From NCBI GenBank assembly GCA_964598205.1, contig CAZRBB010000005.1:5721-69720 (forward strand): 64,000 nt of DNA. Reading direction: 5' to 3'. Each line of letters opens with the position of its first letter. Within the stretch, counting starts at the first letter, position 1. The DNA is from an uncultured Candidatus Saccharibacteria bacterium. GTDB taxonomy: Bacteria > Patescibacteriota > Minisyncoccia > CAIUEV01 > JAHKAQ01. Positions 53,185 to 64,000 of the stretch are shown in pieces. The translations under genes and the position numbers were made by a program. The notes under the pieces were generated by a model. It was not told the origin of the DNA and searched no databases. It saw only the letters and a list, made by a program, of their open reading frames with translations.

Positions 53185-54036
53185 TTATTTTTTAATTTTT
53201 GACTTTTTTCCTAAAGAAAGAGAAAGAGCTTTTATTTGTTTATCTTTTTGATTCAATTGATCTTCAAAAAAGATAAGGTTTCTAGTCACCTCTTCTTTCA
53301 TTCCTTGCTTTTCTTTTTCTAAAATTTTAGTCTTTAGTGAAAGTTTTTTATTATTTTTTTGAAGCATTGCTAAATCTTCTTGTAGCGCAGAAACAGCCAA
53401 GCTATGAGCCATAATAGCCGCTTTTAATTCTTTTTCCCGTCCCGAAAGTGCCTCTTCTAAAAAACTCATTTCTTTCTTCCAAGAACTTTTTTGACTATTT
53501 AAATTTCCTTCTTTTTCTAAAAAACTTTTCCTCTCTCTTGCCACTTCACTCTTTAGCTCATCATTTTTTTTCCTCGCTACTAACAGCTCTTTTTCTAATA
53601 CTATCTTTGCAATTTCCCCTTCTTTCTTTTGATTTTCCTCTTTTTTCCGCAACTCTTTTTTAAAAAAAAGTAATTGCTCCGCCTTTGCGGAACTTTCTTT
53701 TAAAGTTTCTAACCGATTAATATTTTCTCCTATTAGTTGATCCTTCTTCTTTAATTCTTCTTCTAAAACATTAAGACTTTCCTTGACCAAACTTTCTAAC
53801 TTTTCCTTTTCTTCCCTTACTTTTTGAATCTCTGTAGAGAGTTTTTTTTGATTCGCCTTCTTTTTTTTATTCTTAATCTCTGTCTTTATCTTTTTCTCTT
53901 GGGGAAAAATTTTAGTTTCCACGGCAAAGCCCCAATCAATAAGAACCGTCCCCTTCTCTTTATCTTTTTGACTCTTGCAAAAATGAGTCTCCCCTTTTTG
54001 GTATTTACCCAAATCTTTTGTAAATTTAATCAACAT
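53185..54036 (-). CDS. Hypothetical K/E-rich coiled-coil protein
   Basis: 283 aa with a globular N-terminal ~45 aa followed by a continuous heptad-like charged coiled coil. Confidence 0.4.
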   Translation of the reverse strand: MLIKFTKDLGKYQKGETHFCKSQKDKEKGTVLIDWGFAVETKIFPQEKKIKTEIKNKKKKANQKKLSTEIQKVREEKEKLESLVKESLNVLEEELKKKDQLIGENINRLETLKESSAKAEQLLFFKKELRKKEENQKKEGEIAKIVLEKELLVARKKNDELKSEVARERKSFLEKEGNLNSQKSSWKKEMSFLEEALSGREKELKAAIMAHSLAVSALQEDLAMLQKNNKKLSLKTKILEKEKQGMKEEVTRNLIFFEDQLNQKDKQIKALSLSLGKKSKIKK

Positions 54037-54649
54037 TGGTTTTCTTTATTTTTGCTAATTTTAAAAAACACCAAAATTTTAAGTTAGATAATTTTACCTT
54101 CTCCTTCTCCTTTTCTTCTTCTACTTCCTTTTGATCTTCTTCCTGATTCAATGTTAATGTTTCCGTTTCCAATCCCTTTGAGTTTTCTGTTCCCGGCTCC
54201 ACTAAAAAATCCATCAAACTACTTTCTGTTTCTTCTCTAATGTTTTCTACTGGCACTTCCTTGGAAACTACCTTCTCAATCTTAAAAGATTCTTCTTCTG
54301 CTTCTTTTAAAAATTCGCTTACAGTTTTTTCGGCTTGATAAAGCTCTTCATTTAAAAAACTAAGCTGTTCCCTCTTTTTATCTAGCTGATTTCTTAACAC
54401 CAAAAACTTTTTTTCAAAGAAGAAAATTTCATCCTTCCCTTCGGTTAAACCAGCCAAAAGCCGATCCTGTTCTTTTTTAAAACGGACTAGTTCTTCTTTT
54501 TTAAACTTATATTTTCCATTTTTTTCTTCTGGATTCAAAAAAACCGGTCGCAATATTTTTTTATCAATAAAAGCCAAAAGATCTTCTTCTTTAATGTCCA
54601 AGAACTCCAAAGCCTCTTTTATCTTTACTAATGCCAATTTTGATTCCAT
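54026..54649 (-). CDS. Hypothetical coiled-coil protein
   Basis: 207 aa, charged with coiled-coil character. It overlaps the downstream coiled-coil gene by 11 nt. Confidence 0.4.
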   Translation of the reverse strand: MESKLALVKIKEALEFLDIKEEDLLAFIDKKILRPVFLNPEEKNGKYKFKKEELVRFKKEQDRLLAGLTEGKDEIFFFEKKFLVLRNQLDKKREQLSFLNEELYQAEKTVSEFLKEAEEESFKIEKVVSKEVPVENIREETESSLMDFLVEPGTENSKGLETETLTLNQEEDQKEVEEEKEKEKVKLSNLKFWCFLKLAKIKKTNVD

Positions 54650-54802: not shown

Positions 54803-55804
54803 ATGGAAAAAATAATAAAAATAATTCCCGAAAAATTAAAAGAAGGCGATGAAATAAGAGTAATCGCTCCGTCTCAGTCTTTGGCTATTATTTCCGAAGA
54901 AATCAAAACAATAGCTTTAGAGCGTTTTTTTGAAATCAACATTCAAATAACTTTTGGAGAAAACGCAGAAGAAAAAGACGAAACCAATTCCAGTCGAATT
55001 GATTCCCGCATTAAAGACTTGCACCAAGCTTTTAGCGACCCCAAGGTTAAAGGAATATTAACGGTCTTGGGTGGTTTTAATAGCAATCAGCTCCTAGATT
55101 ATTTGGATTGGGAACTAATCAAGAAAAATCCCAAAATCTTTTGCGGTTTTGCCGACATCACCGCCCTAAATAATGCCATCTTTCAAAAAACGGGTCTGGT
55201 CAACTATTCTGGTCCCGACTTCTCTACTTTTGGTCAAAGACTTTATTTTGAATACACGCTAGAATATTTTAAAAAATGCTTGTTTCTGAATTACCCTTTT
55301 TATTGTGGCGCCTCCAAGGAATGGAGCGACGATTCCTGGTTTTTGGATCAAAACAACCGAAGTCTAACCACTAATAGTGGCCTATCTTTAATCAAAGAAG
55401 GAGAAGCAGAGGGAACAATTGTTGGAGGTAACCTAAGTACTTTTAGGCTACTTCAGGGAACACAATATTTTCCAAGCTTGGAGGGTACCATTCTTTTTAT
55501 AGAAGAAGACGGCGAAATTCCACTAGAAAAACTAGATAGGGATCTACAATCACTGATCCATCTTCCTGATTTTAAGGGGGTAAAGGGAATGATTTTTGGC
55601 CGATTCCAAAGAGGAAGTAGTTTAGATGAATACAAAATCAAACAGTTAGTTGATTCCAAAAAGGAACTTGCTAATTTACCCATGATTGCTGGAGTAGACT
55701 TTGGCCATACCGATCCTAAAATCACTTTTCCTATTGGCGGCAAAGCCAGAATCAAAGCCTACGAAGCAATGGAGCATTTAGAGCTAGAGATATTAGAACA
55801 CTAA
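54803..55804 (+). CDS. Peptidase S66 family (LD-carboxypeptidase LdcA / microcin-C immunity MccF-like) homolog with Ala at the predicted nucleophile position
   Basis: 333 aa. EGDEIRVIAPSQSL, LTVLGGFNSN and CGFADITAL correspond to the S66 G(F/Y)SD(I)TAL block, with Ser replaced by Ala. LFIEEDGE carries the Glu, and GVDFGHTDP carries the His. Confidence 0.75.
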   Translation: MEKIIKIIPEKLKEGDEIRVIAPSQSLAIISEEIKTIALERFFEINIQITFGENAEEKDETNSSRIDSRIKDLHQAFSDPKVKGILTVLGGFNSNQLLDYLDWELIKKNPKIFCGFADITALNNAIFQKTGLVNYSGPDFSTFGQRLYFEYTLEYFKKCLFLNYPFYCGASKEWSDDSWFLDQNNRSLTTNSGLSLIKEGEAEGTIVGGNLSTFRLLQGTQYFPSLEGTILFIEEDGEIPLEKLDRDLQSLIHLPDFKGVKGMIFGRFQRGSSLDEYKIKQLVDSKKELANLPMIAGVDFGHTDPKITFPIGGKARIKAYEAMEHLELEILEH

Positions 55805-55810
55805 TAAGCC

Positions 55811-56776
55811 ATGCCCACACTACAACTCTATTCTAATTGGTGGTGGATTCGTTTTCTTTTAACACAAAAGTGCAACCAAAAATGCCCCGACTGTTCTCTT
55901 TGTGAGCTTAAAAAAAACAAGGATGATTTTATAGATCCCAAAAAAATTATTGATGCTTTTAGAGTCTTTTCTCTTTGGGGTTATCGGAATGTCACTCTTT
56001 ACGGAGGAGAACCACTGCTTCATCCTTCTTTCCTTAATATTTACAACAAAGCTCAGCACTTTTTCCCAAATATCCAAGTATTTACCAACGGAACAATTAC
56101 CTTCCCAATAAAAATTGTTCCTAGAAAAACAGATTTTTTTATTTTCAATTTTGACTTTAATAAAAATAAAACCTTTATTAAAAATGTTTTCTTTTTAAGG
56201 AAAAATATTCATCCTCACTTGAATTTTAGCATTATTGTTCAGAAAGAAACCGATATTAATCAATTAAAAGCTGATTTGAATTTTTTTGTTAAAAACAATC
56301 TTCAGGATTTTTCTGTTCGTATTTCCATGAACTGTTTTGCAGATATCCTAAAAGAAAAGAAAATTCTTAATCAGAAAATAGTCAGTTTAATAGGCGTTCT
56401 GCAAGAATTGGGTATCCCTTGTGGAATGGCACAAAAAATCCCTCTCTGTTTTTTTCTTTTTCCACTAAAAAAAATCATTAAGTCAACAGTGAATCCCTTT
56501 TGTGGGAAAGAATGTGGTGGTCTTATAGACCCGAATTTTAATATTTTATCTTGTGGAGCGCTATATCGTTACGAGATTAACCCTAGAGATATTAAACCAA
56601 AAAATATGTTTTATAAAAACAAAATTATTTCTCGCAAAAAACATCAAGAAGTGCTTAAACAAATTCTTAAAATTAAATTAAAAAGAAAATCTCCTGATCC
56701 AAAATGCCAAGCTTGCGAATACTACAAAAGAAGAGATTGTGACAGTACCGGCTGTTTTCCTTATACTAAACCATAG
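55811..56776 (+). CDS. Radical SAM protein with a Cys-rich SPASM/twitch-like C-terminal region
   Basis: 321 aa. FLLTQKCNQKCPDC provides the CxxxCxxC motif, and GGEPLLHP is the SAM-binding GGE motif. The C-terminus carries CGMAQKIPLC...CGKECGG...SCGALY...CQACEYYKRRDCDSTGC. It lies 7 nt downstream of the S66 gene. Confidence 0.75.
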   Translation: MPTLQLYSNWWWIRFLLTQKCNQKCPDCSLCELKKNKDDFIDPKKIIDAFRVFSLWGYRNVTLYGGEPLLHPSFLNIYNKAQHFFPNIQVFTNGTITFPIKIVPRKTDFFIFNFDFNKNKTFIKNVFFLRKNIHPHLNFSIIVQKETDINQLKADLNFFVKNNLQDFSVRISMNCFADILKEKKILNQKIVSLIGVLQELGIPCGMAQKIPLCFFLFPLKKIIKSTVNPFCGKECGGLIDPNFNILSCGALYRYEINPRDIKPKNMFYKNKIISRKKHQEVLKQILKIKLKRKSPDPKCQACEYYKRRDCDSTGCFPYTKP

Positions 56777-56781
56777 ACAAA

Positions 56782-58488
56782 TCATTTCTGTTTTTCTTTA
56801 TTCACTTTTTTCTCTTTTTTATTTTTAAATTTATCAACAATTATTTTCTTTACCATTATTAACCAAGGAAAAAATAAAGTCACCCCCAAAAGCGTCCAAA
56901 AAACTCTCCTATTAAACTGGTCACGGAGACAGACCACTCCTTCAATTTTTTTACAATCATAAATCTCTTTCATTGTCTTTTTTGATTCTCCCTTACTATT
57001 GTAAGAACTTACTTCTAATTCTAAATAATCAAGGTCTTTTGGAGCTTTAATCTTATTCCTCCATCCCTTTATCACTCCGTCTATTTTCCCCACATAAACA
57101 GCTCTTCCAATTTCTCCTCCTTCTTTGTCTTTTAATAAAAGTTCTATTCTTGAAACATTATTTTCATTGGCTAGTGATTGTTTTTTTTGAATATCCTGAA
57201 AAAATTCATATAAACTTAAATCAAAAAAACCCGTAAAAAGATCCACCGTTTCTCCTTTTCTTATTGGAAATTTATTAATACCAGTACCAATTAAACATGG
57301 CACATCTCCTTTATACTCAAGAAAGATCGGAAAATAAACAATATATTTCCTCCCTTCGCCTTCAATTAAAACCTGGAGAGAGGAGCCACCAAAAGTATTG
57401 TCCGCTCCATAAAATCCCTTCTCCTTAAAAGTTTTTTGAGCCCTCTCAATATAATCGTCCAAATTGAACTCATGAGAAACTTCTTCTGTTGACCTTGGTT
57501 TTACTGCAAAAGAACGCCTTTCGGCAATTTCGTTCAAATCCTTATCCAAGCCCGCAAATCTTCCGCCAAAAAAATTAATCAAATCATAACGAACATTAAA
57601 ATTCTTTGCTTCTTGTGAATTATTAAACATTTTAAAACGAACTGTTACCTGAGAATAGCTAATAATATTCTGGATATTTTTGATAAAAAATCTATTCTCT
57701 TTATTTATCATTTCAAAATCAAAACCCCCATCCTTGGAAACCAAGCCAAAACTTTTATCACCCTTTAATACGGAAAAAATAAAAGAACCTCTAGAAAGTT
57801 TTGGGAGCCACTGACGAGGATTAGCATAAAGCATGGAACCCTCAAGTCTCCGCGAAACACTACTATCAACAGCTCCTACATCTAAGGAATAATTTCCTGG
57901 GGGAATATTTTCTGGAATAGTGTATAAAAAAGAAATCTTCTTTTCCCTTCCCCCTGTCAAATCAAAAGAATTGGGAGTTATTAGAAATAAATCATTCAAC
58001 AATTCAGTAGGATAATAATTTGCACCTAGTGTCTTTAATGATCCATGAATTTTTATATTAACTAACGGATAGCTTTCTGGATTTTTTAATAAAATATTCA
58101 AAATAATCTTCTCCCCACCTTTTAGCTCTTTATTGTTTTTATCACCATTCTCTTTTACTGCAGAAACTAGCTCAAGAACAGATTGCTGATTGGATTTTTG
58201 ATACCCCGCTCTATTTACCAATTCTCCAAGATAAAAAGGTTCACCAATAGACCCTTCCCTTACATAATTCCCTCCCAAACCAAAAGAAGGATCTTTTAGC
58301 AAAAAAGCATCAGGGGCCAGTCGTTCATTTTTTATAATTTCGTTCTTGTGATTACGAAAATACAGAACGAGAAAAACGATTAGTATCCCAATTGAAAGAA
58401 CAGTAAGTACTTTCTGCCAAGCAAGTATTTTTTTTACTTTTTTGTCTTTATTCATAAGACCGCTTAATAAAAAGTATCTAAGGGACAT
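56782..58488 (-). CDS. Paralog 1 of a three-member family of bitopic (TM at both ends) surface/extracytoplasmic proteins
   Basis: 568 aa. The likely true start is at M12 (MNKDKK, ~58455), by alignment with the paralog N-termini. It has an N-terminal TM, a large hydrophilic body sharing blocks with 58498..60054 and 61315..63000, a conserved C-terminal YDCKKIEGVVCLRDQFNRRVFW, and a second TM. Confidence 0.6.
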   Translation of the reverse strand: MSLRYFLLSGLMNKDKKVKKILAWQKVLTVLSIGILIVFLVLYFRNHKNEIIKNERLAPDAFLLKDPSFGLGGNYVREGSIGEPFYLGELVNRAGYQKSNQQSVLELVSAVKENGDKNNKELKGGEKIILNILLKNPESYPLVNIKIHGSLKTLGANYYPTELLNDLFLITPNSFDLTGGREKKISFLYTIPENIPPGNYSLDVGAVDSSVSRRLEGSMLYANPRQWLPKLSRGSFIFSVLKGDKSFGLVSKDGGFDFEMINKENRFFIKNIQNIISYSQVTVRFKMFNNSQEAKNFNVRYDLINFFGGRFAGLDKDLNEIAERRSFAVKPRSTEEVSHEFNLDDYIERAQKTFKEKGFYGADNTFGGSSLQVLIEGEGRKYIVYFPIFLEYKGDVPCLIGTGINKFPIRKGETVDLFTGFFDLSLYEFFQDIQKKQSLANENNVSRIELLLKDKEGGEIGRAVYVGKIDGVIKGWRNKIKAPKDLDYLELEVSSYNSKGESKKTMKEIYDCKKIEGVVCLRDQFNRRVFWTLLGVTLFFPWLIMVKKIIVDKFKNKKEKKVNKEKQK

Positions 58489-58497
58489 TCTTGTTGA

Positions 58498-60054
58498 CTA
58501 GTCACGAAGACAAGCCACTCCTTCAATCTTTTTGCAATCGTAAATCTCTTCCGTTGTTTTATCTAATTTCCCTTGATTGTTATAAATGCTCGCCGTTAAC
58601 TCTAAATAATCAAGGTCTTTTGGAGCTTTAATCTTATTCCTCCATCCCTTTGTTGATCCGTCTATTTTCCCCACATAAACAGCTCTTCCAATTTCTCCTC
58701 CTTCTTTGTCTTTTAATAAAAGTTCTATTCTTGAAACATTATTTTCATTGGCTAATACTTGCTTCTCTTTGCTATTTTGAAAGGATTGAGACAATCTTAA
58801 ATCAAGAAAGCCTGTAAAAAGATCTACCGTTTCTCCTTTTCTTATTGGAAATTTACTAATATTGGGAACAGTCAAGCAAGCCGCATACCCCTTAAATTCA
58901 CGAAACAGGGGAAAGTAAACAATATATTTTCTTCCTTCGCCCTCAATTAAAATCTGGAGAGAAGAGAATCCAAAAATATTATCCGCCCAAGAAAAATCCT
59001 TATCATTAAAAGATTTTTGAGCCCTTTCAATATAATCGTCCAAATTGAACTCGTGAAAAACTTCTTCTGTTGACCCTGGTTTTACTGTAAAAGAACGCCT
59101 TTCGGCAATTTTGTCCAAGTCTTTATTAAAATCCATAAACAATCCACCGGCAAGATTAATTAAATCATAACGAACACTAAAATTCTTTGCTTCTTGTGAA
59201 TCATTAAACATTTTGAAACGAACCCCTACTTGAGGATAACTAACAATATTCCAAGAACTTTTTAATGAAAATTTGTTCTCTTTGTTTATTATTTCAAAAT
59301 CAAGATCCCCATCCTTAGAAACCAAGCCAAAACTTTTATCACCATCTAGCACGGAAAAAATCAAAGAACCTTTAGGCGGCTTCTTCCACCCCCAATTACG
59401 ATAAAAAGTGAAACCGGCCAAATAACGATGATTATTCCCCTCAGTGGCTCCCAATTCTAAGGAATAATTTCCTGGAGGAATATTTTCTGGAATAGTGTAT
59501 AAAAAAGAAATCTTTTTTTCCTTTCCCCCTGCTAAATCAAAAGAATTGGAAGTTATTAGAAAAAAATCATTCAAAAAACTGGTTGGAAGATTTTTATCGC
59601 CCACTATCCCTCTTAGAACCCCAGCAATTTTTATATTAACTAACGGATAGTTTTCTGGATTTCTAAATAAAATATTTAGAACAATCTTCTCCCCACCTTT
59701 TAGCTCTTTATTGTTTTTATCACCATTCTCTTTTACTGCAGAAACTAGCTCAAGAACAGATTGCTGATTGGATTTTTGATACCCCGCTCTATTTACCAAT
59801 TCTCCAAGATAAAAAGGTTCACCAATAGACCCTTCCCTTACATAATTCCCTCCCAAACCAAAAGAAGAATCTTTTAGCAAAGATGATTCAGGAGAAACAA
59901 AAGACTCTTTTTCAAAAATCAATCTTTTGCGACTGCGAAAAAAAAGAACGAGAGAAGCAACTAATACCAAAACCAAAAAAACAACAAATATCTTTCGCCA
60001 AAAAAAAACATTTTTTAATTTTACTTCTTTCTCTTTATTTTTTATTATATCCAC
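58498..60054 (-). CDS. Paralog 2 of the surface-protein family, lacking the C-terminal TM
   Basis: 518 aa with the same N-terminal TM and conserved blocks. It ends ...YDCKKIEGVACLRD* at a TAG that is in frame with the start of paralog 1. Confidence 0.6.
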   Translation of the reverse strand: MDIIKNKEKEVKLKNVFFWRKIFVVFLVLVLVASLVLFFRSRKRLIFEKESFVSPESSLLKDSSFGLGGNYVREGSIGEPFYLGELVNRAGYQKSNQQSVLELVSAVKENGDKNNKELKGGEKIVLNILFRNPENYPLVNIKIAGVLRGIVGDKNLPTSFLNDFFLITSNSFDLAGGKEKKISFLYTIPENIPPGNYSLELGATEGNNHRYLAGFTFYRNWGWKKPPKGSLIFSVLDGDKSFGLVSKDGDLDFEIINKENKFSLKSSWNIVSYPQVGVRFKMFNDSQEAKNFSVRYDLINLAGGLFMDFNKDLDKIAERRSFTVKPGSTEEVFHEFNLDDYIERAQKSFNDKDFSWADNIFGFSSLQILIEGEGRKYIVYFPLFREFKGYAACLTVPNISKFPIRKGETVDLFTGFLDLRLSQSFQNSKEKQVLANENNVSRIELLLKDKEGGEIGRAVYVGKIDGSTKGWRNKIKAPKDLDYLELTASIYNNQGKLDKTTEEIYDCKKIEGVACLRD

Positions 60055-60110
60055 AAAAATCTAATAATCTATTGCTAAAGAAGCTCTAAAAAAATTATTT
60101 ATGTTTTTCT

Positions 60111-61337
60111 TTATCCCTTTGGTCCACCGTTCTGGTAGGTACTCGCTAAAAATCCTTCGGCAAAGAAATTAGTCTCTCCGTCTATCTTCCAAAGATTAAA
60201 GGTTCGTATTTTCTTTTTTAGTTCCTTAATTTTTACTATCTTAATCCACTCTTTCTTTAGACTAAAAAGCTCGTCTCCTTCTTTTAATTCAAAAGGATTT
60301 TTAACATGAGTAGCAATCTTACATTTTTTAAAATTCTTTTTACTCAAAACACCCCAACCAATTTTATCTTTCTTTTTTGAATACAATGGGTGCTCTGCAG
60401 ACACTACTAATCTTTTACCGTTTTCCATTAGTAATTCAAACATGTCTTCCCGTTGAGCAGTGGTAATAGTTCTAATAACTTTTTTTTCTAATTTATTTTC
60501 ATTAACATTGTAAGAAACCACCTTTTGTCCAATTTTTAATTTATCAATAGGAAGAGACTTGTTTTCGTAAAGAGCAATTTTGGTATTACTAGCAAAGCAT
60601 TGGTCACTGCCGCTATCGGCTGTGGTGCAGTTGGTGGTGTAATCGATGGAGGTAGTGGAGGTAGTTTCGGTAGTGGAGGTAGTTTCGGTAGTGGAGGTAG
60701 TTTCGGTAGTGGAGGTAGTTTCGGTAGTGGAGGGGGCGGGAATGTAGAGGTAGTAGAGGTAGTAGTAGTAGTCGTAGGTGTCGGAGTAGGTGTTGGAGTA
60801 GGTGTTGGAGTAGGTGTTGGAGTAGGTGTTGGAGTAGGTGTTATGATAATTATTAACATACTGGCTGGTAGTGGCGGTAGTGGCGGTAGTGGCGGTAGTG
60901 GCGGTAGTTTCGGTGAAGGTAGTGGAGGTAGTGGAGGTAGTGGAGGTAGTGCTGGTAGTGGCGGTAGTACAGTCGCAATCACAGGTTGTTCCTGCTGGAG
61001 TAATTGTTGGATACGCTTCATCCCAAGAACTAGCACTCCCTGTCCAACTACCACTGTTCGTAGGAACAGCATAAACCCTGTCCCCTTTAAACAATTGACT
61101 AACGCTGCTTAATAAAACATCATCGTTCTGGTGAACCCGATGAACCATAAAAGTATAATCCGTCCTTGCAGAATAATTAAAACCAGCGGAAATATTACTT
61201 CCAGTGCAGGAAGAACTTGCAGATTGATTGGTAGGAGAAGCCGCTAAGACGCTCTCCCCCTTTTCTTGATTCTTAGAAGCCAAAAAAGAAGAAGCGCAGA
61301 GAAGAGAAATAAGTTTAGCAATGTCCCTTTTTTTCAT
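60111..61337 (-). CDS. Secreted Ser/Thr-rich tandem-repeat protein with a C-terminal Hint (Hedgehog/intein-like) domain
   Basis: 408 aa with a signal peptide, then repeats (TTS)n, (TTA)n, (YSNT)5, YYYYLYYLY and (TTETTS)4. The Hint-like domain runs CFASNTKIALYENKSLPIDKLKIGQKVVSYN...VVSAEHPLYS...KEGDELF...TFNLWKIDGETNFFAEGFLASTYQN. Confidence 0.65.
   Translation of the reverse strand: MKKRDIAKLISLLCASSFLASKNQEKGESVLAASPTNQSASSSCTGSNISAGFNYSARTDYTFMVHRVHQNDDVLLSSVSQLFKGDRVYAVPTNSGSWTGSASSWDEAYPTITPAGTTCDCDCTTATTSTTSTTSTTSTTFTETTATTATTATTATTSQYVNNYHNTYSNTYSNTYSNTYSNTYSDTYDYYYYLYYLYIPAPSTTETTSTTETTSTTETTSTTETTSTTSIDYTTNCTTADSGSDQCFASNTKIALYENKSLPIDKLKIGQKVVSYNVNENKLEKKVIRTITTAQREDMFELLMENGKRLVVSAEHPLYSKKKDKIGWGVLSKKNFKKCKIATHVKNPFELKEGDELFSLKKEWIKIVKIKELKKKIRTFNLWKIDGETNFFAEGFLASTYQNGGPKG
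60648..60960. repeat. Perfect in-frame coding tandem repeats (18-nt x4, 15-nt x5, 9-nt x7) inside the Hint-protein gene
   Basis: ggaggtagtttcggtagt repeats 4 times at ~60648-60735. gtaggtgttggagta repeats 5 times at ~60774-60843. ggtagtggc/ggtagtgga repeats 7 times at ~60866-60960. These produce ORFs in all frames (60536..61072, 60600..61112, 60871..61074). Confidence 0.9.
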
Positions 61338-63000
61338 TTTTCTTTTTTAATTTATCAACGATAATTAAGGCTAGCACTAAACCGGAGAAAAATAAAGTCA
61401 CTCCTAAAAGCGTCCAAAGAACTTTCCGGTTAAACTGGTCACGGAGACAAACGGCTCCTTCAATCTTTTCACAATCGTAGACATCTTTCATTGTCCTTTC
61501 CAATTCCCCTTGATTGTTATAAATACTCATCGTTAACTCTAAGTAATCAAGATCATTTTGAACTTTTATTTTATTTCTCCAACCTTTTGTTACGCCATCA
61601 ACCTTTCCTATATAAACGGTCCTTCCTATTTCATTTCCATCTTTATCTTTTAATAAGAGCTCTATTTTAGAAACATTGTTTTCGCTAGCTAATGATTGCT
61701 TTTTTTGAATATCTTGGAAAAATTCAAACAACATTAAATCAAAAAAACCCGTGAAAAGATCCACCGTCTCCCCTTTTTTTATAGGGAATTTACTAATACC
61801 AAAATTATGCGAATATGTCCCTGCCATTTCAAATTCAAGATACAAAGGAAAGTAAACAATATATTTTCTTCCTTCACCCTCAATTAAAACCTGAAGAGTA
61901 GAAGAACTAAAAGAATTATCCGCCCAATAAAATCCCTTTTCCCTAAAAGCTTTCTGAGCCCTTTTAATGTAGTCTTCCAGATTAAACTCATGAAGAACTT
62001 CTTCGGTTGATCTCGGTTTTACCGTAAAAGAAGCCCTTTCGGGAACTTTGTCTAAATCCTTATCCAGATCCGCAAATATTCCACCAAAAAGATTAATTAA
62101 ATCATAACGAACACTAAAATTCTTTGCTTCTTGTGAATCATTAAACATTTTAAAACGAACCCCTACTTGAGGATAGCTAATAATAATCCAAGGATTTTTT
62201 AATGAAAATTTATTCTCTTTGTTTATCACTTCAAAATCAAGATCCTCATCCTTAGAAACCAAGCCAAAACTTTTATCACCATCTACTACGGAAAACACCA
62301 AAGAGGTTCTGCCAACCTGTATCTCCCGATCGATATAAACAAAACCACTTCCATCTAAATATCGCAAAGCATTACTATCAACGGCTCCTACACCTATAGA
62401 GTATTCTCCCGGAGAAATGTTTTCTGGAATAGTATATGGAAAAGAAATCTTCTTTTCCATTCCTCCCGCCAAACTAAAAGAATTAGGAGTTATTAAAAAG
62501 AAATCATTCAGCAATTTAGTAAGTCTGCCTGCATGTCGCGTCTTTAATGCTCCATGAATTTTTATATTAACTAACGGATAGCTTTCTGGATTTTTTAATA
62601 AAATATTCAAAATAATCTTCTCCCCACCTTTTAGCTCTTTATCGTTTTTTATATCACCATTTTCATTTTCTACAGAAATTAGTCTGAGTATAGCTTGATT
62701 TTTGCGGTTTTTCCACCATCCTCTATTTATCAATTCTCCAAGATAAAAAGGTTCACCAATAGACCCCTCTCTTACATAATTCCCTCCCAAACCAAAAGAA
62801 GGATCTTTCGATAAAGATGTTTCATGAGAAACAGAAGTCTCTTTTCTAAAAATTCCGCTTTTACGATTGCGAAAGAAAAGAACAAGAGAAGCAACTAATA
62901 CCAAAACCAAAAAAACAACAAATATCTTTCGCCAAAAAAAAATATTTTTTAGCTTCCCTTTTTCATCTCCACTTTCGTTTTTGTTTTTGTTTTTGTCCAT
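61315..63000 (-). CDS. Paralog 3 of the bitopic surface-protein family
   Basis: 561 aa with an N-terminal TM (FFWRKIFVVFLVLVLVASLVLFF, identical to paralog 2). It has conserved blocks and a C-terminal YDCEKIEGAVCLRDQFNRKVLW followed by a TM. Confidence 0.6.
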   Translation of the reverse strand: MDKNKNKNESGDEKGKLKNIFFWRKIFVVFLVLVLVASLVLFFRNRKSGIFRKETSVSHETSLSKDPSFGLGGNYVREGSIGEPFYLGELINRGWWKNRKNQAILRLISVENENGDIKNDKELKGGEKIILNILLKNPESYPLVNIKIHGALKTRHAGRLTKLLNDFFLITPNSFSLAGGMEKKISFPYTIPENISPGEYSIGVGAVDSNALRYLDGSGFVYIDREIQVGRTSLVFSVVDGDKSFGLVSKDEDLDFEVINKENKFSLKNPWIIISYPQVGVRFKMFNDSQEAKNFSVRYDLINLFGGIFADLDKDLDKVPERASFTVKPRSTEEVLHEFNLEDYIKRAQKAFREKGFYWADNSFSSSTLQVLIEGEGRKYIVYFPLYLEFEMAGTYSHNFGISKFPIKKGETVDLFTGFFDLMLFEFFQDIQKKQSLASENNVSKIELLLKDKDGNEIGRTVYIGKVDGVTKGWRNKIKVQNDLDYLELTMSIYNNQGELERTMKDVYDCEKIEGAVCLRDQFNRKVLWTLLGVTLFFSGLVLALIIVDKLKKKNEKKGHC

Positions 63001-63150
63001 AAATAAAAATAAAATAAAGTAAGATAAAATAAAACCCTACCAAAATTACACTACAAATATACCATGCCCCACATTTTCTAGCAAATTAATCATCCTTCTC
63101 AGTCGTACTTTATTCATGTAGAATCACTAAGACAATAAAAAGCCCAAAAA

Positions 63151-64000
63151 ATGGAAAAATTTTTCTCAAATTTAATATCCCCTTTCCGCTCAACAATAAA
63201 AAAGAAGATTAGATTCAAGAAAGAAATCTTCACCAATACTCTAAAAATTAATTTAACTCAAAGCTGCAATCAAGAACATCTTTCTTGTTACTCTAAATGC
63301 CCAGAAGAAAACAACAACACTTTCATAAAAAAAGAGAAATTACTAAAAACAATGAAAGAATTCTCTTTTTGGGGGTTAAAGAGAATTTCCTTTTCAGGAG
63401 GAGAGCCCTTGCTTCATCCGGACTTCTTTTTTATTTATAACCAAGCCCAAATACTATTTGAAGAAGTTCGAGTTTCCACTAATGGAACCATTCCCCTACA
63501 AGGAGAGCTGGTAGCTAGACAAAGCGATGTCTTTATTTTTAATTTTAAATTTTCAAAAGATGAAAATTTTATTAGAAACTTACATTTACTAAACAATAAA
63601 ACAAACCCTAAAATATTATTCAACATTTTAATAGAAAAAGACACTAACATTCCTCTTTACAAGGAACAGATTCTCCTTTTAAAAAACATTAATTTAAAAA
63701 GAATACTCTTTTCTCTTTCCTTTGATTCCAAAAAAAACATTAACCAAGAAAAAGAAATTCTTAACGAAAAAACTTTTGAAATAGTTAATTTCATTTATAA
63801 CAATAGACAGAATTGCATTCTTCATCAAAGAGTTCCTTACTGCTTTCTCCTTCCAAAATTAAAAGAATTACTAAAAATAAAGACTCCCCAAGGCTATAGC
63901 CTAGAATGCTTAGGAATGCTGGATCACAATTTCAACATCTACCCCTGCCCTCAACACCACCAAGAAAAAAATCCCAAAAACATGTTTTCTAAAAACGACA
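63151..64000 (+). CDS. Divergent paralog of the 55811..56776 radical-SAM protein with a non-canonical Cys spacing (3' end beyond the window)
   Basis: ATG is at 63151 and no stop occurs before 64000, which is why it is missing from the ORF track. The translation runs MEKFFSNL...INLTQSCNQEHLSCYSKCPEEN...FSGGEPLLHPDFFFIYNQAQ...FIFNFKFSKDENF...CFLLPKLKELL...ECLGMLDHNFNIYPCPQ. It is clearly homologous to rSAM1 (GGEPLLHP, FIFNF(D/K)F, NMF(Y/S)KN), but the cluster motif is Cx6Cx3C. Confidence 0.65.
   Translation, partial: MEKFFSNLISPFRSTIKKKIRFKKEIFTNTLKINLTQSCNQEHLSCYSKCPEENNNTFIKKEKLLKTMKEFSFWGLKRISFSGGEPLLHPDFFFIYNQAQILFEEVRVSTNGTIPLQGELVARQSDVFIFNFKFSKDENFIRNLHLLNNKTNPKILFNILIEKDTNIPLYKEQILLLKNINLKRILFSLSFDSKKNINQEKEILNEKTFEIVNFIYNNRQNCILHQRVPYCFLLPKLKELLKIKTPQGYSLECLGMLDHNFNIYPCPQHHQEKNPKNMFSKND

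What the first reader, a model, noticed from the sequence alone, without database searches (positions are those of the whole stretch)
54803..55804. S66 peptidase homolog has Ala where the catalytic Ser is expected (GFADITAL)
S66 enzymes (LdcA, MccF) use a Ser-Glu-His triad, with the Ser embedded in a G(F/Y)SD(I/V)TAL block. Here the block reads CGFADITAL. The Glu (LFIEEDGE) and His (GVDFGHTDP) contexts are retained. If the alignment is right, the protein cannot form the acyl-enzyme and would be a binding or sequestering pseudo-enzyme. This is notable because it heads an operon with a radical-SAM maturase.
Basis: partly seen in the sequence, partly recalled or inferred. Interest (0 to 1): 0.6.

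Follow-up and report, generated by a model that had tools for sequence, protein, structure and literature searches.

The report
S66 peptidase homolog lacking its catalytic serine
A candidate-phyla-radiation bacterium carries an otherwise normal MccF/LdcA-type (S66) peptidase gene in which one base change replaced the catalytic serine with alanine; the change is real, but it is a one-off with no sign of a new role or a functional tie to the radical-SAM gene next to it.

Summary
ORF 54803-55804 (+) encodes a 333-aa two-domain S66 protein. Its Ala117 (GCC, 55151-55153) aligns without gaps to the nucleophile Ser of BA_5613 and Lmo1638, the same residue that was engineered to Ala in PDB 4inj. Glu234 and His302 are retained. 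The identical sequence was assembled from at least 4 independent samples, and no Ser allele is on record, so it is not an assembly error.

The change is a singleton. Ser is present in all 119 nearest relatives, in 54 copies across 52 GTDB genomes, and in 148 of 149 diverse cluster representatives. The one exception is an independent Ser->Gly variant in a Bacillus. No relative is more than 63% identical, so the event cannot be dated. Apart from the nucleophile, the protein is no more deviant than its divergence predicts.

Engineered S->A mutants of this family are inactive but still bind ligand, so the protein is most likely hydrolytically dead. Whether it is a selected pseudoenzyme or a recent loss of function cannot be told.

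The radical-SAM gene starts 6 nt downstream. Its conserved partners are the downstream membrane-protein and Hint-domain genes, not S66. None of the Ser-bearing relatives examined has an rSAM neighbour.

Verdict: real, modestly interesting, and not shown to be a new system.

The parts
54803..55804 (+). S66 (LD-carboxypeptidase/MccF family) homolog, 333 aa, of the BA_5613/Lmo1638 ('YocD-like', MccF-clade) branch, with Ala at the nucleophile position
   Evidence: ORF and translation. Pfam PF02016 + PF17676. PDB phmmer E 4e-109 to 4e5s. AF2 model pLDDT 85.7, Foldseek TM 0.92 to 4e5s.
55151..55153 (+). Codon GCC = Ala117, at the position of the catalytic Ser; one transversion away from TCC
   Evidence: Sequence. 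Aligned to Ser in 119/119 nearest relatives, 54/54 GTDB copies and 148/149 diverse representatives. All relatives examined use TCN Ser codons here. Equivalent to the engineered S111A of Lmo1638.
55502..55504 (+). Codon for Glu234, the retained triad glutamate (in LFIEEDGE)
   Evidence: Column is E in 120/120. The following residue is E235, where the 119 nearest relatives have D, but E is common there in the wider family at 44/150.
55706..55708 (+). Codon for His302, the retained triad histidine (in DFGHTDP)
   Evidence: Column is H in 120/120.
55811..56776 (+). Adjacent radical-SAM gene (rSAM1, 321 aa; CX3CX2C at C21/C25/C28; Cys-rich C-terminus). It is positionally coupled, starting 6 nt after the S66 stop, but is not shown to be functionally linked to S66
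   Evidence: Its conserved partners are the downstream genes.

Best explanation
This is a real, naturally nucleophile-less member of the BA_5613/Lmo1638 (MccF-clade) branch of peptidase family S66, in an isolated Patescibacteria (CPR) lineage. A single T->G change (TCC->GCC) replaced the catalytic Ser with Ala117. The fold, the Glu234/His302 pair and the rest of the family-wide conserved residues are intact. The protein therefore very likely folds and can still bind its small peptide-like or aminoacyl-nucleotide-like ligand, but it cannot form the acyl-enzyme and so is hydrolytically dead or impaired by orders of magnitude. The change is a sporadic, lineage-specific loss of catalysis. It is not the signature of a dedicated pseudoenzyme family, and the radical-SAM gene 6 nt downstream is a positional neighbour whose own functional partners lie further downstream. 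Shown: residue identity and position, reality of the allele, its uniqueness, retention of the rest of the site, and non-conservation of the S66-rSAM pairing. Inferred: loss of activity, retention of binding, and absence of a selected new role.
For: Position: gap-free alignment to 4h1h (Ser) and 4inj (engineered Ala); in the model, A117 lies between strand 112-115 and helix 120-130, with TM 0.92 to 4e5s. Reality: the gene DNA is identical in 4 loci from JGI and Logan assemblies, with 9 contigs in all; the 90% cluster has one member. Uniqueness: Ser in 119/119, 54/54 and 148/149; no S66 gene with CG[FY]ADITAL in 241 M metagenome records. Sporadic recurrence: an independent S->G variant, P0246 / WP_295971434.1, in an uncultured Bacillus. 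Otherwise normal constraint: only 2 of about 68 family-wide conserved columns deviate (S117A and the conservative L279I), which is typical for its divergence. Overall about 40% of residues differ from relatives, but only 15 of 157 columns that are >=90% conserved do. Single-step mutation: relatives use TCN at this codon. Functional consequence by analogy: gonococcal LdcA S165A is inactive (PMC5646250); MccF S118A binds substrate (PMC8323819); PDB holds S->A mutants of five family members, several with ligand bound. rSAM link not conserved.
Against: No activity or binding measurement exists for this protein. The query has the most departures at sites conserved in its nearest 119 relatives: 15, against a median of 4 and a maximum of 12. 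These include N215R, D235E and F244L at positions invariant in those relatives. This could mean the pocket has been re-tuned for a new role rather than simply lost, although those positions vary in the wider family. The intact full-length ORF and the tight 6-nt junction with rSAM1 are compatible with a retained function. No close relatives exist (best 63%), so whether purifying selection continued after the substitution cannot be tested. The comparative sample for the rSAM is a single locus.
Confidence: 0.6

Rival explanations
1. Selected pseudoenzyme. The Ala variant is maintained because ligand binding without turnover is useful, for example sequestering a toxic aminoacyl-nucleotide or peptide, sensing a murein fragment, or serving as a recognition or scaffold partner for the co-transcribed radical-SAM enzyme.
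For: The ORF is intact and the fold and Glu/His are retained. The allele is the only one seen, in all samples. Extra substitutions occur at residues invariant in the nearest relatives, and from the model's topology several sit in loops bordering the catalytic cleft: R25Q, H139D, Y140F, N215R, D235E. There is a 6-nt junction with rSAM1 and no terminator-like site in it. S->A mutants of homologs retain ligand binding.
Against: It is a singleton, and no clade conserves the substitution. The motif was not found in other S66 genes in metagenomes. The 'extra' substitutions are at positions that vary across the wider family, and in the wider alignment the query is not an outlier. The rSAM's only homolog lies in a locus lacking S66. 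Ser-type relatives never have the rSAM neighbour.
Confidence: 0.22
2. Still an active hydrolase that uses another nucleophile, either Cys114 or a His/Glu-activated water, so the Ala is not inactivating.
For: Glu234 and His302 are retained. A Cys lies three residues upstream. PDB 4inj (the S111A mutant) is titled 'with product', which leaves some residual turnover in such mutants formally possible.
Against: Cys114 is ancestral, not compensatory: it is present in 109/120 and 108/150 Ser-bearing relatives. In the model it lies inside strand 112-115 rather than at the elbow. No new Ser, Thr or Cys appears at positions 116-118. The S->A mutant of a family member is inactive in vitro and in vivo.
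Confidence: 0.07
3. Artefact: a sequencing, assembly or consensus error, or a minority allele promoted to the consensus.
For: It is a single-base difference from a Ser codon, and the samples appear to come from related projects (adjacent accession numbers).
Against: The DNA is identical across the whole gene in four loci from independent read sets and two assembly pipelines, 9 contigs in total. No Ser-bearing near-identical protein exists in 15 billion sequences.
Confidence: 0.04

Closest known systems
BA_5613 (B. anthracis, PDB 4e5s/5fd8) and Lmo1638 (L. monocytogenes, PDB 4h1h; S111A mutant 4inj): the 'MccF-like / MccF clade' S66 proteins, named YocD-like in some annotations
   Same: Full-length homology: E 4e-109 and 7e-104, with about 50% identity in the structural alignment. 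Same two-domain fold (TM 0.91-0.92). Same motifs around all three triad positions. The window protein's nucleophile motif, CGFADITAL, is letter-for-letter that of the engineered Lmo1638 S111A mutant.
   Different: The Ala here is natural. The wild-type relatives have Ser. The physiological substrate of this clade is not documented in the literature I could search.
MccF (E. coli plasmid-borne and B. anthracis microcin C immunity peptidases, S66)
   Same: Same family and fold. Same Ser-His-Glu architecture except for the missing Ser. E 1e-32 to 1e-40, TM about 0.82. The S118A/S112A mutants bind substrate without turnover, which is the model for what the natural Ala variant would do.
   Different: Only 27-30% identity. 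There is no mcc biosynthetic context in the window. Activity on aminoacyl-adenylates was not tested.
LdcA (muramoyl-tetrapeptide LD-carboxypeptidase; P. aeruginosa 1zrs, E. coli 5z01, N. gonorrhoeae)
   Same: Same S66 family and nucleophile-elbow design. The S->A mutants (2aum, 5z03, gonococcal S165A) are catalytically dead.
   Different: Distant: 20-25% identity and TM about 0.7. The NCBIfam LdcA equivalog model scores 114 bits against a cutoff of 378, so the JGI name 'LdcA involved in peptidoglycan recycling' is not justified at equivalog level.
WP_295971434.1 (P0246), S66 family protein of an uncultured Bacillus with Gly at the nucleophile
   Same: An independent natural loss of the nucleophile in the same clade, with motif CGYGDVTAL, Glu and His retained, and 50% identity to the query.
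   Different: A different substitution (Gly) in a different phylum. It is also a singleton cluster, seen on 3 contigs.

Membership tests
Peptidase family S66 (homology level) | Both Pfam domains (PF02016 N-terminal, PF17676 C-terminal) score above their gathering thresholds | tested here: met
   103.6 bits against 25, and 106.7 bits against 23.7.
Peptidase family S66 (homology level) | Two-domain S66 fold with strand-nucleophile-helix elbow | tested here: met
   AF2 model pLDDT 85.7, pTM 0.88; strand 112-115, residue 117, helix 120-130. Foldseek TM 0.92 to 4e5s and 0.67-0.73 to LdcA structures.
Peptidase family S66 (active enzyme) | Catalytic Ser in the G-[FY]-S-D motif | tested here: not met
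   Ala117 aligns to Ser in 4h1h and 4e5s, and in 119/119, 54/54 and 148/149 relatives.
Peptidase family S66 (active enzyme) | Catalytic Glu of the Ser-His-Glu triad | tested here: met
   E234; the column is E in 120/120.
Peptidase family S66 (active enzyme) | Catalytic His of the triad | tested here: met
   H302; the column is H in 120/120.
LdcA (muramoyltetrapeptide carboxypeptidase) equivalog | NCBIfam NF008424 score at or above the curated cutoff | tested here: not met
   114 bits against a cutoff of 378.
MccF (microcin C immunity peptidase, strict sense) | Close similarity to characterised MccF and/or an mcc gene-cluster context | tested here: not met
   27-30% identity to E. coli and B. 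anthracis MccF. The neighbours are dcw genes, an rSAM and unannotated membrane proteins.
MccF (microcin C immunity peptidase, strict sense) | Hydrolysis of aminoacyl- or peptidyl-adenylates | not testable with these tools
   Requires an enzyme assay.
BA_5613 / Lmo1638 clade of S66 | Full-length, high-scoring similarity to the solved clade members | tested here: met
   E 4e-109 and 7e-104 over residues 7-324.
Pseudoenzyme with a selected non-catalytic role | The inactivating substitution is conserved across a clade, or there is evidence of purifying selection after the loss | tested here: inconclusive
   It is a singleton. The nearest relative is 63% identical and has Ser. There is no sequence variation among the samples. 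No other Ala variants were found.
Radical SAM superfamily (neighbour gene 55811-56776) | CX3CX2C cluster motif and a Pfam Radical_SAM match | tested here: met
   C21-X3-C25-X2-C28. PF04055 scores 31.7 bits against a cutoff of 29.5.
SPASM/twitch peptide maturases (neighbour gene) | A recognisable SPASM domain and an adjacent precursor peptide | tested here: inconclusive
   There is no Pfam SPASM hit. NCBIfam maturase models match only residues 13-96 and fall far below their cutoffs. The C-terminus is Cys-rich (CX2CX7CX4C). No obvious precursor ORF was found.

The most novel reading that the evidence does not exclude
Ala117 is a selected feature. On this reading the protein is a natural substrate-trap S66 that was recruited, by insertion directly upstream of rSAM1, into a rare CPR-specific module of radical-SAM enzymes, about 530-aa membrane proteins and a Hint-domain protein. 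There it would bind, without cleaving, a D-amino-acid-containing or C-terminal peptide intermediate, acting as a recognition or immunity subunit.
Probability: 0.07. Interest if true: 0.65.

Novelty: new variant of a known kind. Interest (0 to 1): 0.27.

Why it matters
If the Ala variant is simply a dead enzyme, it matters mainly for annotation. The gene is labelled 'LdcA involved in peptidoglycan recycling', yet it is neither an LdcA equivalog nor likely to be catalytic, so metabolic reconstructions of this reduced-genome CPR bacterium should not count this activity. It also gives a rough natural frequency, about 1 in 150-300, for nucleophile loss in this S66 clade. If the variant were instead maintained by selection, it would be the first described natural S66 pseudoenzyme and a ready-made substrate trap for identifying the unknown ligand of the widespread BA_5613/Lmo1638/YocD clade. 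That clade is abundant in CPR bacteria and, curiously, in DPANN archaea.

Tried and rejected
1. Sequencing error: rejected. The DNA is identical in four independently assembled loci and no Ser allele is on record.
2. Cys114 as a substitute nucleophile: rejected as a compensatory change, because the Cys is ancestral in Ser-bearing relatives.
3. Decaying pseudogene: rejected. The ORF is full length and conserved sites are strongly retained.
4. Population data to test selection: uninformative. The loci show no polymorphism within the gene.
5. A conserved S66-rSAM operon: not found in 4 Ser-type loci, in 52 GTDB loci, in the rSAM homolog's locus, or in the three closest relatives' syntenic regions.
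6. Metagenome scan for the motif CG[FY]ADITAL: 4 hits, all chance matches in unrelated proteins. No positive-control scan was possible, and the window's own contig is apparently not in that collection.
7. Finding the rest of the genome to look for a second S66: failed, because the genome is not a GTDB representative. There is none in the window or in L001.
8. Promoter and terminator scan: uninformative, with fewer sites than in the shuffles.
9. Rfam: no RNA element near the locus.
10. PADLOC: no defence-system match beyond generic rSAM similarity.
11. Composition: no clear sign of foreign origin.
12. Literature: nothing on S66 pseudoenzymes or on the YocD-clade substrate. The primary MccF papers by Nocek, Agarwal and Tikhonov are not held.
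13. Caveat: double-counted the GTDB loci, so its absolute counts are not used. Only the relative comparison and the codon classes are.

Full report
**The observation**

The ORF at 54803-55804 (+) is real and encodes 333 aa. It contains CGFADITAL at residues 114-122, LFIEEDGE at 231-238 and GVDFGHTDP at 297-305. Ala117 is encoded by GCC at 55151-55153. Both S66 Pfam domains match far above threshold: PF02016 over residues 18-137 at E 1e-29, and PF17676 over residues 203-317 at E 1.5e-30.

**Which residue is at the nucleophile position**

A phmmer search of PDB sequences gives full-length alignments, gap-free around the motif, to BA_5613 of B. anthracis (4e5s, E 4e-109) and Lmo1638 of L. monocytogenes (E about 1e-104). 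Lmo1638 is present as two sequences, 4h1h with CGFSDITAL and 4inj with CGFADITAL. Foldseek's description of 4inj is 'S111A mutant of member of MccF clade'. The window protein therefore naturally carries exactly the motif of the engineered catalytic mutant.

An AlphaFold2 model built on 32 sequences has pLDDT 85.7 and pTM 0.88. It places residue 117 between strand 112-115 and helix 120-130, which is the classical nucleophile elbow. The model matches 4e5s at TM 0.92, MccF structures at about 0.82 and LdcA structures at about 0.7. Coordinates are not returned by the tool, so I could not measure distances. At about 50% identity without nearby gaps, the residue assignment is not in doubt.

**Is it real**

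The exact protein is encoded on 9 contigs. I retrieved four loci from four samples: JGI 3300045131 and 3300044991, and Logan assemblies of SRR35365923 and SRR35365835. All are identical to the window across the whole gene. The protein's 90%-identity cluster, in a collection of about 15 billion proteins, has this single member, so no Ser allele of this gene has ever been recorded. An assembly or sequencing artefact is very unlikely. A within-population minority allele can only be excluded with reads.

**How unusual it is**

- Among the 120 best database hits, the column is Ser in 119 and Ala only in the query. Glu234 and His302 are 120/120.
- In 52 loci from GTDB species representatives (54 gene copies), all have Ser, always with TCN codons. 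GCC is therefore a single transversion from TCC.
- In an exhaustive HMMER search of 1.84 billion cluster representatives, 148 of the 149 alignable top hits (34-64% identity) have Ser. One, P0246 (WP_295971434.1, uncultured Bacillus, 50% identical), has Gly with Glu and His retained.
- A back-translated scan of 241 million metagenome records for C-G-[FY]-A-D-I-T-A-L returned four hits, none in an S66 gene.

Loss of the nucleophile is thus a rare, sporadic and independently recurring event in this clade, not the hallmark of a sub-family. The nearest relative of the query is only 62-63% identical. The organism itself is isolated: its PBP is at most 63% identical to anything known, the best hits are Patescibacteria, and Moranbacteria follow at 50-55%. 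The substitution therefore cannot be dated.

**State of the rest of the protein**

Against its 119 nearest relatives, the query departs at 15 of 157 columns that are at least 90% conserved. The others have a median of 4 and a maximum of 12. The query's departures include N215R, D235E and F244L at positions invariant in those relatives, plus R25Q, H139D and Y140F. From the model's topology, several of these lie in loops at the sheet edges that form the catalytic cleft. That placement is an inference, not a measurement.

However, the query is also the most divergent sequence in that set, with mean identity 60% against a median of 70%. In an alignment that adds more distant relatives, it deviates at only 2 of about 68 columns that are at least 95% conserved: S117A and the conservative L279I. 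That is ordinary for its divergence. Positions 25, 139, 215 and 235 vary in the wider family; for example, E at position 235 occurs in 44/150 and R at position 215 in 11/150.

So the only departure at a position the whole family conserves is the nucleophile. The strong retention of conserved sites, set against about 40% overall divergence, shows the gene evolved under purifying selection for most of its history. It is not a decaying pseudogene. This cannot show whether selection continued after the Ser was lost.

**Functional consequence**

This rests on analogy and is inferred. In N. gonorrhoeae LdcA, S165A abolishes activity in vitro and phenocopies a deletion, and the Ser-His-Glu triad is the one defined for P. 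aeruginosa LdcA (PMC5646250). E. coli MccF S118A was crystallised with processed microcin C bound (PMC8323819). PDB holds S->A mutants of P. aeruginosa and E. coli LdcA, B. anthracis MccF, Ba3275 and Lmo1638, several of them with ligands.

The natural Ala variant should therefore bind ligand but not turn it over. Cys114 is not a replacement nucleophile. It is present in 109/120 and 108/150 Ser-bearing relatives, and it sits within the strand rather than at the elbow.

**The radical-SAM neighbour**

rSAM1 (55811-56776, +) starts 6 nt after the S66 stop codon. It has a canonical CX3CX2C motif at C21/C25/C28 and a Cys-rich C-terminus. It just passes the Pfam Radical_SAM threshold. Co-transcription with S66 is likely, but the scans for promoters and terminators were uninformative.

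Comparative evidence argues against a functional link:

- The rSAM family is extremely rare, with one full-length homolog in 5.8 billion proteins (P0121, 32% identity).
- That homolog's 20-kb locus (L009) has no S66 gene. It does contain homologs of the window's downstream genes: a 527-aa protein (E 1e-42 to 1e-46 to the three window paralogs) and a Hint-domain protein (33-39% identity), plus five more rSAM genes.
- Four Ser-type S66 loci have unrelated housekeeping neighbours. None of the 52 GTDB loci has an rSAM1 homolog within 3 kb.
- The three closest relatives of the organism conserve mraZ-rsmH-ftsL-PBP-murE-lgt but have neither S66 nor rSAM beside it.

The rSAM therefore belongs with the downstream module, and S66 is a lineage-specific positional neighbour. 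The sample for this conclusion is small.

**Classification**

The protein is an S66 homolog of the BA_5613/Lmo1638 clade. It is not an LdcA equivalog: NCBIfam NF008424 scores 114 bits against a cutoff of 378. It is only distantly related to bona fide MccF, at 27-30% identity. It fails the defining catalytic-Ser test for an active S66 peptidase, so it should be filed as a non-peptidase homolog.

I found no literature on natural S66 pseudoenzymes or on the physiological substrate of this clade.

**Verdict**

The 'cannot form the acyl-enzyme' inference is well founded. The 'binding/sequestering pseudoenzyme in an operon with a radical-SAM maturase' reading is possible but unsupported. The simplest account is a sporadic, lineage-specific loss of catalysis in a reduced-genome CPR bacterium.

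A second, canonical copy elsewhere in the genome could not be checked. The window and L001 hold none, and the genome is not in the searchable genome collection. Interest is modest. The adjacent rSAM-membrane-protein-Hint module is arguably the more unusual feature of this region.

Noticed in passing
window 55811-64000 (continues beyond the window end; see L001 11009-19356): A rare conserved gene module unrelated to S66. It comprises rSAM1 (55811-56776, +), three roughly 70%-identical paralogs of a 518-568-aa N-terminally membrane-anchored protein with no Pfam match (56782-58488, 58498-60054, 61315-63000, all on the minus strand), a Hint-domain protein (60111-61337, -), and a second paralogous rSAM (starts 63151, +, 37% identical to rSAM1). 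The same trio of rSAM, ~530-aa protein and Hint protein recurs in L009 with five further rSAM genes. Its function is unknown.
   Followed up: partly
window 63151-64000 (+) / L001 18361-19356: In rSAM2 the canonical CX3CX2C motif is replaced by SCNQEHLSCYSKC (CX6CX3C spacing), while Pfam Radical_SAM still matches at E 3e-9. It may have a non-canonical cluster-binding motif, or it may be an inactive paralog.
   Followed up: no
window 60111-61337 (-): The Hint-domain protein has a signal-peptide-like N-terminus and long Thr/Ser-rich tandem repeats (TTSTTS, TTETTS, NTYS, then YYYYLYYLY) ahead of a C-terminal Hint/intein-like domain (Pfam Hint E 2e-7). The repeat region has locally raised GC (0.44) and reversed GC skew.
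   Followed up: no
window ~58166-58230 and ~60843 onward, compared with L001: The window and locus L001 (from a different sample) are identical through the S66 gene but differ by indels and substitutions inside the first membrane-protein paralog (568 aa against 557 aa) and the Hint-protein repeats (408 aa against 412 aa). This is strain-level hypervariability confined to the module.
   Followed up: no
loci L034, L036, L038, L039, L042, L044, L050, L054, L055, L064: Close homologs of this S66 clade (46-54% identity, all with the Ser) occur in DPANN archaea (Nanoarchaeota, Micrarchaeota) as well as many CPR bacteria. Archaea lack murein, so the clade's substrate may not be the cell's own peptidoglycan.
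   Followed up: no
P0246 (WP_295971434.1, uncultured Bacillus sp.): A second natural nucleophile-less S66 protein, with motif CGYGDVTAL (Ser->Gly) and Glu and His retained. It is a singleton cluster seen on 3 contigs.
   Followed up: partly
loci L054 and L056: These two GTDB loci, an uncultured archaeon and a Patescibacteria MAG, each carry two S66 copies within a 7-kb stretch, both with Ser. One copy in L056 is very divergent (36% mean identity to the core set).
   Followed up: no
window 53185-54649 (-): Two lineage-specific Lys/Glu-rich proteins that look coiled-coil from their composition (283 aa and 207 aa; the latter has a weak N-terminal HTH_17 match, E 7e-5) sit between mraZ and the S66 gene. 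They are absent from the syntenic position in the three closest relatives.
   Followed up: no
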